64,000 bases of DNA from a virus: IMG/VR virus record IMGVR_UViG_3300021961_008157; one strand, given 5' to 3'. Below the pieces are notes generated by a model. It searched no databases and was not told the DNA's origin. It saw nothing but the letters and a program-made list of their open reading frames with translations. Each line of letters opens with the position of its first letter. Position 1 is the first letter of the stretch. The position numbers and the translations under genes are program-made. Shown here piece by piece: positions 39,120 to 52,270 of this stretch.

Positions 39120-39211
39120 TGGTACCAGCGGAGGGGATCGAACCCTCTCAAGAACGCTAATCTGGCGCTAAAAGTCTTATAAGGACTCTCTGACTACCAA
39201 GTCTCGCTGGC
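39120..39211 (-). tRNA. non-canonical tRNA with TAT anticodon (nominal Ile, AUA)
   Basis: 7-bp acceptor, GAGGG-TTCGATC-CCCTC T arm, loop CTTATAA, tetraloop D arm, long variable arm, CCA. Confidence 0.8.
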
Positions 39212-39220
39212 ATTAAATTT

Positions 39221-39501
39221 TGGTGCGACTGGCCAGAATCGAACTGGCATGACTTGCGTCGAGGGATTTTCTTACCACTATAGTTTTCACTACCCTTTCG
39301 GTTTGTGGTCTGGACTATACCTTAACCATTGCTTTCGCTTTAGGTCCCCGCCGTCTAGTCTCTACACGTTCCCTTTTGGGTTTCGCTCGGTATTAGCATT
39401 TTACAGCCTTCACCGAATTTGACGGGTTCTACTCCTACCGTTTCCAGTAGGGCACTCAAATTTTCTAAGTCCCTTGTGTCTACCGATTTCACCACAGTCG
39501 C
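39221..39501 (-). tRNA. trnL: tRNA-Leu(TAA) split by a group I intron (exons 39467-39501 and 39221-39270)
   Basis: Joined exons give an 85-nt type II tRNA with AGGGA-CTTAAAA-TCCCT anticodon arm and CCA. Confidence 0.93.
39271..39466 (-). ncRNA. group I self-splicing intron (trnL-UAA type), 196 nt
   Basis: U.G splice pair in P1 (ACUU/GAGU), P AAATTCGGTGAA, Q AATACCGAGC, R GTGTAGAGACTAGACGG, S AAGGTATAGTCC, terminal G. Confidence 0.93.
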
Positions 39502-45733: not shown

Positions 45734-46110
45734 CATCTGGTTGTTTATTTTACAAGGTAAGTCCTACCCCGGGTCTGGCTCAAAGTGCCAGTACAGCGGC
45801 CTTGCTACGGCTGTAGAACTTGATGTTCTTGCCGCTAACAGTTACGCTACCATTTGTAGATGCGTTTGCATTTACTAGTTTTATGCGATTAACGTTCGTC
45901 ATCTAACGTGCTGTCCAGTTCAATACTCTTTACTCAATCGATCGCTATGTCAGGCCCATCATAAACACATTGGATTTTGGATTCGAACCTTGTCCTAGTG
46001 TTGTCCATCTGCACTTCCCACAGTACTGAACCCTATGTGTTTATGGTGGACCTGCCCGGTACCGCCCCGGGGTCTTGAATCCTTTTCTATCACCTTCATA
46101 CAGCAATAAC
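45712..46110 (-). ncRNA. ssrA: circularly permuted (two-piece) tmRNA
   Basis: Acceptor piece ending CCCGG-GGCGGTA-CCGGG-CAGGTCC-ACCA (46044); 86-nt hairpin-closed spacer; coding piece starting GGGCCTG (45957) with G3.U70; tag ORF 45780-45869. Confidence 0.9.
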
Positions 46111-46128
46111 TTACATTATATATTTATT
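46085..46128 (+). repeat. 44-bp direct repeat, copy 1 (tmRNA -10 and 5' end)
   Basis: Identical to 47142..47185. Confidence 0.95.
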
Positions 46129-46144
46129 TTAGCCAATGATAAGT

Positions 46145-47017
46145 TTATAGGTTATGCTTTTTCCATTCTGCACGAACCCTGGCTTTAGACTTTGCTGATA
46201 ATGGAACATAGTCCAAATCTTTTGCCATTGAGTCGCCATTTGTATAGCACCATTCAAAGAACTTGATTGCTTCTTTCGCAGAGCTATCTGGATAAACAAT
46301 GATGTAAGTTTCAGCAGTTAATTTGTAGTTGCCTTCTTTGAAATTATCAAAATTTGCTTCAACACCGTCTAACTTAGCAACAGTTAAACTATTGGATTTG
46401 GTGTAAGCATATTCAACGTATCCAATGGAACCAGGCAATCGCATAACCATTGCAGCAACACCGGCGTTGCCTTTACCTTGTGCAATGTTGTTACCTTCCC
46501 ATTTAACTGTCTTTCCTGGTTTAGTTGTAAAACCGTGTTTAGCCAGATAGTTTGTAAAAACAGAAGTAGTGCCAGAACTATCAGCACGGGATATCCGAGT
46601 AATTGCCAAGTCAGGCAACTTAGAATCAATTTGCTTCCAGTTTGTAACACGACCATCAAAAATATCAGCTATCTGTTTGCTTGTTAAATTTAACTCATTG
46701 GTCTTGACACCTGGAATGTTTACTACTGCAACAACACCACCCATGACCATTGGGAACTGGATCTGACCATTCTCATCCAACTCTGCTTGTTTAACTGCTT
46801 CGTCACTTGCACCAAACTGTACAATCTTTCCATTAATCTGTTTGATTCCGCCGCCAGAACCAATCGCCTGATAGTTGACTTGCACACCTGTTGCTTTGTT
46901 ATACTCTGCTGCCCATTTGCTATAAATCGGCGCAGGAAAGGTAGCTCCTGCACCAGTGACTGTAATTGCTTGAGCATTAATTGCAAATGCAGCAAGAAGC
47001 ATTAATAATTTTTTCAT
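46145..47017 (-). CDS. pstS: phosphate ABC transporter substrate-binding protein PstS
   Basis: GAGATFPAPIY, YQAIGSGGG, FGASD, RADSSGTT, IGYVEY. Confidence 0.95.
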   Translation of the reverse strand: MKKLLMLLAAFAINAQAITVTGAGATFPAPIYSKWAAEYNKATGVQVNYQAIGSGGGIKQINGKIVQFGASDEAVKQAELDENGQIQFPMVMGGVVAVVNIPGVKTNELNLTSKQIADIFDGRVTNWKQIDSKLPDLAITRISRADSSGTTSVFTNYLAKHGFTTKPGKTVKWEGNNIAQGKGNAGVAAMVMRLPGSIGYVEYAYTKSNSLTVAKLDGVEANFDNFKEGNYKLTAETYIIVYPDSSAKEAIKFFEWCYTNGDSMAKDLDYVPLSAKSKARVRAEWKKHNL

Positions 47018-51402: not shown

Positions 51403-51431
51403 ATTGTAGTTGATTTTTTGTAGTTTGTCAA
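51403..51431 (-). promoter_or_regulatory. sigma70 promoter of tRNA-Leu(TAG)
   Basis: TTGACA-N17-TACAAT. Confidence 0.7.
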
Positions 51432-51604: not shown

Positions 51605-51723
51605 ATATAATTGGTTCGGTTTGTCTGACACTTAACCAATGAACTCTAGAATTCATTACGCTAAATTTCAAACCCAGGGTATTTAACCCGCGACATCAAT
51701 ACACCGAAAGGTTTTGATGCGTG

Positions 51724-51785
51724 TCCTTGATAGCATCACTGCTATTTCGTCCTTGTTACGTTGGACTCATCAGAAGGATAACGTT
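51724..51785 (-). ncRNA. type I hammerhead ribozyme
   Basis: TCCTT-CTGATGA-GTCC(AACGTAACAA)GGAC-GAAA-TAGCA(GTGA)TGCTA-TC^AAGGA; predicted cleavage between 51729 and 51728. Confidence 0.92.
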
Positions 51786-51788
51786 GTT

Positions 51789-51863
51789 TGGTGCGCCCGG
51801 GGAATTCCGACATCCCGACCCAGCGATTATGAGTCGCTTGCTCTGCCCCTGAGCTACAGGCGC
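51789..51863 (-). tRNA. tRNA with CAT anticodon, probably tRNA-Ile2 (lysidine)
   Basis: GCGACTCATAATCGC anticodon arm like enterobacterial ileX; atypical T loop GTCGGAA; CCA. Confidence 0.82.
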
Positions 51864-51902
51864 ATATTATAGAAAAGCTGACCGTCAGCTTATATATAAC
51901 AA

Positions 51903-51915
51903 ATTTTAAAGAACA
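51903..51915 (-). promoter_or_regulatory. boxA-like antitermination element
   Basis: TGTTCTTTAAAAT upstream of the tRNA cluster. Confidence 0.6.
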
Positions 51916-51989
51916 GTTGCATCAGTATTTTGCCGTTATAGCAAACCTCTCACTCGTTTGAATGACACAGTCACACTCTGACACAAAAA

Positions 51990-52236
51990 TGCTCTGCGTC
52001 CCCCGGCGGTAATTATACTGCATCAACGTAGCCCACAGACAGGACCCACCGCATCACACACAGCCTCCACCCGCTTCCCGACAGGGACCGTTCTCGCATT
52101 GCCAGCGCCGGTTAGGTTGGACCGCATCTTTCGACGTAAGACTATTATGTCTTAGAACCACCCGTGGCTATCACACCACTTCAATCCTCCGGGTCAGAGT
52201 AGCCGTTGATTAAACGGCACGGTTTTTACTGTCTAA
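51990..52236 (-). ncRNA. unidentified highly structured ncRNA (~240 nt)
   Basis: GC-rich, ORF-free, many hairpins and long-range helices, directly downstream of a consensus promoter. Confidence 0.7.
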
Positions 52237-52241
52237 ACGTT

Positions 52242-52270
52242 ATTATATAACAAATTTGATTTAATGTCAA
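52242..52270 (-). promoter_or_regulatory. consensus sigma70 promoter of the RNA operon
   Basis: TTGACA-N17-TATAAT. Confidence 0.85.

What the first reader, a model, noticed from the sequence alone, without database searches (positions are those of the whole stretch)
51990..52236. Unidentified ~240-nt GC-rich, pseudoknotted ncRNA under a consensus promoter
Visible helices on the minus strand: ACCGT/ACGGT enclosing GCCGTT(TAATC)AACGGC, GTGG/CCAC, TAAGAC(ATAATA)GTCTTA, CGTC(GAAA)GATG, CGGT/ACCG and CGC(TGGCAAT)GCG. A 3' domain has GTCCC/GGGAC and GCGG/CCGC, and a long-range CTCTG/CAGAG pairing crosses the first helix. I cannot match it to RNase P, SRP, 6S, an intron or a riboswitch. Large tRNA-associated phage RNAs (GOLLD, ROOL) are precedents but are much longer.
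Basis: partly seen in the sequence, partly recalled or inferred. Interest (0 to 1): 0.8.

Follow-up and report, generated by a model that had tools for sequence, protein, structure and literature searches.

The report
New folded RNA of phage tRNA operons
The flagged stretch is a real gene for a 233-base, knotted non-coding RNA. It belongs to a large RNA family, absent from the catalogues, that uncultured large phages carry inside their tRNA gene clusters, and its job is still unknown.

Summary
Window 51990-52222 (minus strand) is a 233-nt member of a large structured-RNA family that is not in Rfam.

**Distribution.** I recovered the family from about 190 loci (152 distinct instances). They come from uncultured-phage contigs in IMG/VR, JGI and ENA. 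90% lie within 1.5 kb of same-strand tRNA genes. Four large phage records (197-367 kb) each gave one match.

**Structure.**
- Ten helices and one pseudoknot carry compensatory changes: 96.8% of cells paired, 37 of 50 pairs with double changes, covariation 0.51 against 0.08 or less for slid controls.
- The 5' domain is a row of hairpins tied together on a near-invariant GGGUGGU strand.
- The 3' domain is one irregular hairpin with a box C/D-like kink-turn.

Eight of its ten pairings hold. ACCGU/ACGGU and the long-range CUCUG/CAGAG pseudoknot do not, because CUCUG pairs locally.

**Known families.** Nothing matches in Rfam (E up to 10), in T4 rnaC/rnaD, or in any GenBank phage.

**Function.** Untested. 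The most likely reading is a stable trans-acting RNA released from the tRNA-operon transcript. A new ribozyme is the main rival.

The scan met this family before on other DNA (e1-5809918, e1-5820361 and others).

The parts
52242..52270 (-). Sigma-70-type promoter: TTGACA (52270-52265), 17-nt spacer, TATAAT (52247-52242). The predicted start is near 52236-52233.
   Evidence: 12/12 consensus match in the scan. It is identical in the close relatives L002, L003 and L006. The start site is inferred from spacing only.
52223..52235 (-). Short A-rich leader between the predicted start and the family core. Its AAAAA run can pair with the U-run that follows the 3' end.
   Evidence: Read from the sequence. 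Flank pairing across the family is only slightly above shuffles.
51990..52222 (-). Family core, 233 nt, from CCGU (consensus ACGU) to AGAGCA.
   Evidence: Model R2 was built without this sequence or its close relatives. It scores the stretch 167.8 bits, E 5e-56, full length. R1 gives 234 bits.
52202..52218 (-). H1 hairpin, GCCGUU / AACGGC, loop UAAUC.
   Evidence: All five modelled pairs show compensatory changes; 99.4% of cells paired.
52187..52199 (-). H2 hairpin, CUCUG / CGGAG, with loop ACC (52194-52192). The loop is the 5' strand of pseudoknot PK-A.
Evidence: Four of five pairs are compensatory; 99.4% paired.
52164..52179 (-). H3 hairpin, GUGGU / GCCAC, with the conserved loop GUGAUA.
   Evidence: Three of five pairs are compensatory, for example GUGG/CCAC, GUGC/GCAC and GUAG/CUAC.
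52155..52163 (-). Near-invariant strand GGGUGGUUC. GGU (52162-52160) pairs with the H2 loop ACC (PK-A). GGU (52159-52157) can pair with ACC in the Hx loop (PK-B).
   Evidence: GGGUGGUUC was unchanged in all 38 members found without requiring it. GGGUGGU changed only in the two compensated lineages among the 100 found by a 3'-domain pattern. PK-A has compensated variants: ACAC/GUGU in L138, G(U)CC/GGGC in L195 and L118, and a wobble in L181. PK-B never varies, so it is untested.
52125..52154 (-). H4 (UAAGAC / GUCUUA) and H5 (CGUC GAAA GAUG). These are peripheral hairpins, absent from the commoner ~197-nt forms of the family.
   Evidence: All six H4 pairs and three of four H5 pairs are compensatory. 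The reduced forms lack both hairpins.
52109..52124 (-). Hx hairpin, CGGU / ACCG, with the 8-nt loop CCAACCUA that holds the conserved ACC.
   Evidence: It covaries as CGGU/ACCG, UAGU/ACUA, CAGU/ACUG and GUCUUU/AAAGGC.
52095..52107 (-). H6 hairpin, CGC / GCG, with the GNRA-like loop UGGCAAU.
   Evidence: The third pair swaps between C-G (60 sequences) and U-A (40); 100% of cells paired.
51998..52088 (-). 3' domain, one long irregular hairpin. H7 is GUCCCU (52088-52083) with GGGGAC (52003-51998). H8 is GCGG (52074-52071) with CCGC (52009-52006). H9 is GCUGUG (52064-52059) with UGCAGU (52022-52017). H10 (52052-52026) is the variable tip.
   Evidence: H7 has 6 of 6 pairs compensatory, H8 2 of 4 and H9 5 of 6. 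The L002 variant alone shows GGACC/GGUUC, GUGG/CCAC and GGCGUA/UACGCU.
52023..52058 (-). Kink-turn-like motif between H9 and H10: 3-nt bulge UGU, then GAU (52058-52053), opposite UGA (52025-52023). It resembles box C (RUGAUGA) and box D (CUGA).
   Evidence: The pattern NNN-GA on one strand and GA next to H9 on the other is present in 75 of 96 distinct members. One subgroup replaces the G.A/A.G pairs with Watson-Crick pairs. The kink-turn assignment itself rests on textbook consensus, not on a test.
51985..51997 (-). Conserved single-stranded 3' end GCAGAGCA, followed by a U-run.
   Evidence: AGCA ended all 140 members tallied, which were selected for ending in AGCA. The next four positions are U in 59-77% of them.

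Best explanation
**Shown.** The stretch is one gene of a widespread structured-RNA family of uncultured large phages that is not in the catalogues. The RNA folds into two domains. The 5' domain is a row of hairpins (H1, H2, H3, optional H4 and H5, Hx, H6). It is pulled together because the near-invariant strand GGGUGGU pairs with the ACC loop of H2 and probably with the ACC in the Hx loop. The 3' domain is one long hairpin (H7, H8, H9, kink-turn, H10) with conserved purine-rich internal loops.

**Inferred, biogenesis.** In this phage the RNA is made from a consensus sigma-70 promoter as the first gene of the tRNA cluster, so host polymerase probably makes it early. In about half of its relatives it fills a tRNA-tRNA spacer, and there the host enzymes that trim the flanking tRNAs (RNase P and the 3'-end trimming enzymes) would release it.

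**Inferred, action.** The released RNA most likely persists as a stable, compact molecule that acts in trans. It would use its invariant junction strands and loops to bind a host or phage component of translation or RNA metabolism. It would not act as a cis element or code for anything.
For: - Homologues are in about 190 loci, 152 of them distinct.
- A model built without the window finds the window copy at 167.8 bits, E 5e-56.
- Covariation on 100 diverse members: 96.8% of cells paired, 37 of 50 pairs with changes on both sides, score 0.508 against 0.052-0.084 for slid partners, 0 of 500 shuffles as high. One search gives the same picture.
- Junction sequences stay invariant while the helices vary freely, which is typical of RNAs with a tertiary fold.
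- Four phage records of 197-367 kb each gave one match.
- Context: 137 of 152 instances have a same-strand tRNA within 1.5 kb and none has one on the opposite strand. 75 of 147 start within 15 nt of a tRNA 3' end, and 61 of 140 end within 15 nt of the next tRNA.
- The same RNA also occurs behind promoters or 3-4 nt after a stop codon, so it is a self-contained unit.
- In L002 the 3' domain has been swapped for that of another lineage with all helices kept.
- T4 rnaC and rnaD are a precedent for stable RNAs released from a phage tRNA operon.
Against: - There are no expression data.
- The MFE is no better than shuffles, z = +0.45.
- The sequence conserved at both ends (A-rich flank|ACGU, and AGCA followed by U-rich sequence) is unusual for an RNA whose ends are set only by neighbouring tRNAs. 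It fits a processing site or a ribozyme as well.
- In the window, about 125 nt with a hairpin and U-tract separate the RNA from the first tRNA, so co-transcription here is not certain.
- Fragments of the family may already sit, unnamed, in a published list of 8,495 IMG/VR motifs (PMC10690425). I could not check this.
Confidence: 0.45

Rival explanations
1. It is a new class of ribozyme. It would either cleave itself at its conserved 5' boundary (A-rich flank|ACGU), freeing the upstream tRNA or mRNA and itself, or act on tRNA precursors.
For: - The fold is complex and pseudoknotted, with a kink-turn and invariant junctions.
- ACGU heads nearly every member, behind a purine-rich flank, whether a tRNA, an ORF stop codon or a promoter lies upstream.
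- The 5' end sits 1-4 nt after tRNA CCA ends. By my own recollection, this is the position that HDV-like theta ribozymes occupy in gut phages.
- The same operon in the window carries a hammerhead-like motif just after another tRNA.
Against: - No model of any known self-cleaving class matches, even at E up to 10.
- At 190-290 nt it is far larger than needed for self-cleavage.
- Spacing to the flanking tRNAs equals normal tRNA-tRNA spacing in these arrays, so host enzymes suffice.
- No catalytic test is possible with these tools.
Confidence: 0.2
2. It is a cis-acting element of the tRNA operon transcript: a folded leader or spacer that protects, insulates or times the processing of the polycistronic tRNA precursor, with no role once released.
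For: - It always lies on the tRNA strand and is often the first or a spacer unit.
- In the window it heads the cluster behind the strongest promoter.
Against: - Blocks of 9-20 nt stay invariant across lineages whose helices have diverged. That is far more constraint than a spacer needs.
- It also occurs 3-4 nt behind protein genes with no tRNA nearby: L068, L074, L096, L077 and L103.
- Its position within arrays is not fixed: first, internal or last.
Confidence: 0.12
3. It is a self-assembling RNA. Copies associate into an RNA-only multimer, as shown for GOLLD, ROOL and OLE, which also lie next to phage tRNA genes.
For: - It has the same genomic niche as GOLLD and ROOL (PMC12286853 mentions tRNA arrays).
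- It has several conserved, exposed loops and a kink-turn that could make contacts between molecules.
Against: - It is 2-4 times smaller than those RNAs.
- No self-complementary (palindromic) loop is conserved; the conserved loops have intramolecular partners.
- No homology to GOLLD or ROOL models.
Confidence: 0.08

Closest known systems
Phage T4 rnaC and rnaD (species 1 and 2 RNAs, 139 and 119 nt)
   Same: They are stable small RNAs of unknown function, encoded on the tRNA strand inside a phage tRNA cluster directly after a tRNA. By textbook knowledge they are released with the tRNAs.
   Different: There is no detectable homology: model R1 scores at most 3.2 bits over the T4 cluster with filters off. 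The present RNA is about twice as long, pseudoknotted, and found only in uncultured phages.
GOLLD and ROOL RNAs (Rfam; structures in PMC12286853)
   Same: They are conserved, ornate non-coding RNAs of phages and prophages, typically next to tRNA genes, first seen in lake and gut metagenomes, with function unknown.
   Different: GOLLD and ROOL are about 500-800 nt and form multimeric cages. This family is 190-290 nt and matches neither Rfam model. Multimerisation is untested.
Self-cleaving ribozymes flanking phage tRNAs (hammerhead; HDV-like theta ribozymes)
   Same: They abut tRNA 3' ends within phage tRNA clusters. The window itself has a hammerhead-like motif 12 nt after a tRNA.
   Different: Those are 50-90 nt with known cores. 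This RNA matches none of their models and has a different, two-domain architecture.
Box C/D kink-turn RNAs and other kink-turn RNAs
   Same: H9, a 3-nt bulge, tandem G.A/A.G and a U.U pair reproduce the box C (RUGAUGA) / box D (CUGA) arrangement in 75 of 96 members.
   Different: The motif is internal to a larger fold. The sequence upstream of the D-like box is base-paired within H10, so no free guide region is evident.
Candidate structured RNAs catalogued from IMG/VR (DNAVirus_N motifs, PMC10690425)
   Same: They come from the same source data (IMG/VR intergenic regions) and were also found by covariation.
   Different: Those motifs are 29-151 nt, unnamed and unannotated. Whether any covers part of this RNA could not be checked, because the supplements are not held.

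Membership tests
The uncatalogued phage tRNA-array RNA family defined here (models R1, R2) | Full-length match to a covariance model built without the window sequence or its close relatives | tested here: met
   R2 was built from 65 reduced-form members (A9). It gives 167.8 bits, E 5e-56, model positions 1-198 of 198, at window 51990-52222 on the minus strand.
The uncatalogued phage tRNA-array RNA family defined here (models R1, R2) | Near-invariant junction blocks: GGGUGGU(U/A), loop ACC in H2, ACC in the Hx loop, GAAGCGGGUGGA, AUAAUUACCGCC, and terminal AGCA | tested here: met
   All are present in the window copy.
Any Rfam 15 family (including RNase P, SRP, 6S, tmRNA, group I/II introns, riboswitches, GOLLD, ROOL, OLE, raiA, HEARO) | A match to the family's covariance model | tested here: not met
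   No hit overlaps 51985-52229 at E up to 10 with permissive filters. No hit overlaps the RNA in 15 relatives at E up to 1.
T4 rnaC / rnaD | Sequence and structure homology | tested here: not met
   R1 with filters off over T4 69500-73500 gives a best score of 3.2 bits, and under 1 bit over rnaC and rnaD.
T4 rnaC / rnaD | Encoded on the tRNA strand within a phage tRNA cluster, abutting tRNAs | tested here: met
   137 of 152 instances have a same-strand tRNA within 1.5 kb; 75 of 147 start within 15 nt of a tRNA end. In the window, tRNAs follow on the same strand.
Known self-cleaving ribozyme classes (hammerhead, HDV-like, twister, twister-sister, pistol, hatchet, glmS) | Conserved catalytic core, as captured by the Rfam models | tested here: not met
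   No hit over the RNA. The only hammerhead-like hit in the window is a separate element at 51723-51779.
Known self-cleaving ribozyme classes (hammerhead, HDV-like, twister, twister-sister, pistol, hatchet, glmS) | Site-specific self-cleavage | not testable with these tools
   This needs in-vitro transcription and a cleavage assay.
Box C/D guide RNAs | Box C (RUGAUGA) and box D (CUGA) forming a kink-turn | tested here: met
   The motif is in 75 of 96 members. The window has GUGAUG and UUGA in the required register next to H9.
Box C/D guide RNAs | A free guide sequence upstream of box D | tested here: not met
   The sequence upstream of the D-like box is the paired 3' strand of H10.
Y RNA / Ro RNP | A long helix formed by the 5' and 3' ends that holds the Ro-binding site | tested here: not met
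   The RNA has no long terminal helix. The flanks pair only marginally above chance. No Rfam Y RNA or YrlA model matches.

The most novel reading that the evidence does not exclude
The RNA is a new catalytic or tRNA-sensing RNA. The invariant GGGUGGU strand carries two GGU triplets, the same triplet that RNase P RNA and T-box leaders use to read the ACCA end of tRNA. Here the triplets are held by two internal ACC loops that look like tRNA 3' ends. The RNA could therefore be a ribozyme that cuts the operon transcript at its conserved ends. Alternatively it could be a switch or decoy that engages tRNA 3' ends, or enzymes that recognise them, during infection.
Probability: 0.15. Interest if true: 0.9.

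Novelty: new variant of a known kind. Interest (0 to 1): 0.66.

Why it matters
Large phages with dozens of tRNA genes are common in lakes, yet what their tRNA clusters do beyond supplying tRNAs is unclear. This RNA is present in well over a hundred such phages, and each of the four large records searched gave one match. Its junction blocks are near-invariant across lineages whose helices have diverged, and it has a knotted two-domain fold.

RNAs with that profile have often turned out to be ribozymes, riboswitch-like sensors or cores of RNA-protein machines. The family now has a tested consensus structure, two covariance models and clear size variants (about 197 nt minimal, 230-290 nt with added hairpins). 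Biochemical tests such as self-cleavage, binding partners and cryo-EM can therefore start directly.

It also shows that phage tRNA arrays carry several unrelated RNA "passengers" (T4 rnaC/rnaD, GOLLD, ROOL, and this one).

Tried and rejected
- **Whole genome.** None is held for the window.
- **GenBank phages.** blastn found only tRNA hits for the window stretch and nothing for a consensus-like member.
- **First exact 22-mer in IMG/VR.** No hit.
- **Relatives through neighbouring proteins.**
  - The 107-aa divergent ORF is an orphan.
  - The 822-aa protein found no IMG/VR relative.
- **Chance matches to the 16-18-mer, discarded:** L019, L024, L029, L037, L051, L060, L063 and L064.
- **Pairings considered and dropped.**
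L002 breaks it while compensating H7 and H8.
  - GGUGGU/ACCGCC from RNAalifold. ACAGCC variants break it, but they compensate GCUG/CAGC in H8.
  - 5' CGU with ACG before H7. The partner is absent in the UCCUCCC subfamily.
  - H1 loop with AUAAUUA, and H3 loop with GUCG. Neither shows consistent covariation.
- **Resemblances to 5S rRNA (CUGACCC, AGAAGUG), SRP domain IV, the HDV P2 helix and twister.** These are word-level only, and no model hit supports them.
- **Protein partners sought in four phage genomes.** L7Ae, TROVE and SmpB families were not found.
- **Neighbouring ORFs of the non-tRNA copies.** They share no informative family.
- **Bacterial occurrence.** There is one MAG contig (L062). 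Nothing was found in 150 other genomes of that order.
- **Source project PRJEB7840.** It could not be traced in the paper library.
- **Supplements of PMC10690425.** Not held.

Full report
**What is at the coordinates.** On the minus strand, window 52270-52242 holds a perfect sigma-70 promoter: TTGACA, 17 nt, TATAAT. About 13 nt downstream begins a 233-nt stretch (52222-51990) with 57% G+C in a region of 30-40%. It has only 34-35-codon ORFs. Downstream on the same strand lie, in order:
- a tRNA with anticodon CAU that only Rfam detects;
- a hammerhead-like motif;
- tRNA-Asn, tRNA-Gly and tRNA-Leu.

The window also carries a permuted tmRNA, a group I intron hit and many auxiliary genes, so it is a piece of a large uncultured phage. 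No whole genome is held. GenBank phages contain nothing similar apart from tRNAs.

**Known families.** Rfam 15 gives no hit overlapping 51985-52229, even at E up to 10 with permissive filters. The minimum-free-energy fold is no more stable than shuffled sequence, z = +0.45. The case therefore rests on comparative evidence.

**Finding relatives.**
- The adjacent 107-aa ORF is an orphan, but an exact look-up gave ENA contigs with the same locus.
- One of them, L002, is identical over the first 170 nt of the RNA. It then diverges by about 40% over the 3' part, with every change compensated: GUCCC/GGGAC becomes GGACC/GGUUC, GCGG/CCGC becomes GUGG/CCAC, and GCUGUG/UGCAGU becomes GGCGUA/UACGCU.
- A look-up of earlier notes by sequence showed shared words with RNAs noted in other phage tRNA arrays. 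This gave me a search pattern.
- Three pattern scans of IMG/VR, one of JGI metagenomes and one of GTDB genomes returned about 190 loci with a member.
- The third scan used a 3'-domain 17-mer.
- After removing duplicates there are 152 distinct instances.
- A few GC-rich chance hits to the short patterns were discarded.

**Structure.** I built two covariance models. R1 comes from 32 long forms and R2 from 65 reduced forms; R2 does not include the window or its close relatives. R2 finds the window copy full length at 167.8 bits, E 5e-56.

| Alignment | Cells paired | Pairs with changes on both sides | Covariation score | Slid partners | Shuffles as high |
|---|---|---|---|---|---|
| 100 diverse members | 96.8% | 37 of 50 | 0.508 | 0.052-0.084 | 0 of 500 |
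| 33 members | 97.8% | 33 of 44 | 0.517 | 0.026-0.069 | 0 of 500 |

These alignments are fitted to the model, which favours it. However, the same compensations are visible in a plain MAFFT alignment.

The supported helices, in order, are:
- H1;
- H2, a 5-bp stem with an ACC loop;
- H3;
- H4 and H5, which are optional and missing from the commoner ~197-nt forms;
- Hx, which varies as CGGU/ACCG, UAGU/ACUA, CAGU/ACUG and GUCUUU/AAAGGC;
- H6, with a GNRA-like RGCAA loop;
- H7, H8, H9 and the base of H10, which together form one long irregular hairpin.

Between H9 and H10, 75 of 96 members have a 3-nt bulge followed by GA, opposite GA. This is the box C/D-type kink-turn arrangement. One subgroup converts the G.A pairs into Watson-Crick pairs.

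**Pseudoknots.** The strand GGGUGGUUC was unchanged in all 38 members found with a pattern that did not require it. GGGUGGU changed only in the two compensated lineages among the 100 found by a 3'-domain pattern.
- *PK-A.* The first GGU can pair with the ACC loop of H2. The rare variants are compensated: loop ACAC with GUGU (L138 type), loop GUCC with GGGC (L195 and L118), and loop AUC with a G.U wobble (L181). PK-A therefore has some covariation support, from two or three lineages.
- *PK-B.* The second GGU can pair with the conserved ACC in the Hx loop, giving an H-type pseudoknot with H4 and H5 inserted in its first loop. These bases never vary, so PK-B is only a proposal.

Its ACCGU/ACGGU pairing is not conserved.

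**Ends.** The family starts with ACGU (CCGU in the window), preceded by a purine-rich flank: A at position -1 in 83 of 120 instances. The 140 members tallied all end with AGCA, and the next four positions are U in 59-77% of them. The flanks can pair slightly more often than shuffled flanks do, and G at -1 goes with C at +1 in 12 of 20 cases. This is a weak hint that the ends are held together.

**Context.**
- 137 of 152 instances have a same-strand tRNA within 1.5 kb, and none has one on the opposite strand.
- 75 of 147 start within 15 nt of a tRNA 3' end, typically 1-4 nt after CCA.
- 61 of 140 end within 15 nt of the next tRNA, and 43 have both.
- This spacing equals the normal tRNA-tRNA spacing in these arrays.
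- Other copies follow a promoter (window, L012, L186), a stop codon by 3-4 nt (L068, L074, L096 and others), or another small RNA module.
- Four phage records of 197-367 kb each gave one match.
- Only one bacterial assembly holds it, on a 23-kb contig of a MAG. 150 other genomes of that order do not.

**Comparison with known RNAs.** The closest analogues by position are T4 rnaC and rnaD, but R1 scores them below 1 bit. GOLLD and ROOL share the niche, yet they are much larger and do not match. The neighbours of copies outside tRNA arrays share no informative protein family. A published catalogue of IMG/VR motifs of 29-151 nt might contain fragments of this RNA, but I could not check it.

**Interpretation.**
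- *Shown:* a real, conserved, pseudoknotted two-domain RNA gene, which in this window sits behind a consensus promoter.
- *Inferred:* it is released from tRNA-operon transcripts by the host's tRNA-trimming enzymes and acts in trans as a stable folded RNA. I put this at 0.45.
- *Rivals:* the conserved termini, the invariant junctions and the nearby hammerhead-like motif keep a new ribozyme class alive at about 0.2. A purely cis-acting spacer (0.12) and an RNA-only assembly (0.08) are less likely.

The scan has met this family before on other DNA. The notes e1-5809918, e1-5809929, e1-5318819 and e1-5407733 share words with it. The follow-up e1-5820361 called such modules widespread uncatalogued lake-phage RNAs.

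Noticed in passing
window 51723-51779 (minus): A hammerhead type I-like motif (Rfam RF00163, 26.6 bits, E 7e-4, below the gathering score of 34) starts 12 nt after the tRNA at 51792-51863. It is a possible ribozyme for trimming the tRNA 3' trailer.
   Followed up: partly
window 51792-51863 (minus): A tRNA with anticodon CAU (Met or Ile2) is found by Rfam (46 bits) but missed by ARAGORN. Its T arm aligns poorly to the model.
   Followed up: no
window 52244-52257 and 51893-51906 (minus): The 14-nt string AAATTTGTTATATA, which forms the spacer and part of the -10 box of the RNA's promoter, recurs 125 nt downstream of the RNA, just before a hairpin with a U-tract (51890-51872) and the tRNA-CAU. 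It looks like a scar from insertion of the RNA gene between an older promoter and the tRNA cluster.
   Followed up: no
L002:70-296 compared with window 51990-52222: A sister phage has the identical 5' domain, but its 3' domain comes from a different lineage (the same as in L012 and L098). It is followed at once by a tRNA-Ala. There is therefore a recombination breakpoint inside the RNA gene, and the two domains are exchangeable modules.
   Followed up: partly
L010:470-555; also L022, L040, L044, L084, L135: A separate module of about 85-90 nt, closed by GAGGCCAC/GUGGCCUC, sits between tRNA-Asp and the RNA. A different module (GGUGCC...GGGGCCAGCCC) takes this position in L008, L025 and L038. 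These are probably further uncatalogued array RNAs.
   Followed up: no
window 45736-46158 (minus); also L036:1362-1865 and L040:1-385: Permuted (two-piece) tmRNA genes lie in the same phage RNA clusters.
   Followed up: no
window 39120-39476 (minus): A group I intron hit (53 bits) lies just upstream of an unusually long (92-nt) tRNA-Ile(UAU) call.
   Followed up: no
window 51403-51431 (minus): A second near-consensus promoter (TTGACA, 17 nt, TACAAT) lies inside the tRNA cluster, just upstream of tRNA-Leu.
   Followed up: no
family alignment A9/A10: the base 5' of GGGU and the base 5' of ACC in the Hx loop: Two positions that are not partners in any modelled helix co-vary: CAC-GGGU goes with AACC, and CAA-GGGU goes with UACC. 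This is either a tertiary contact or shared ancestry.
   Followed up: no
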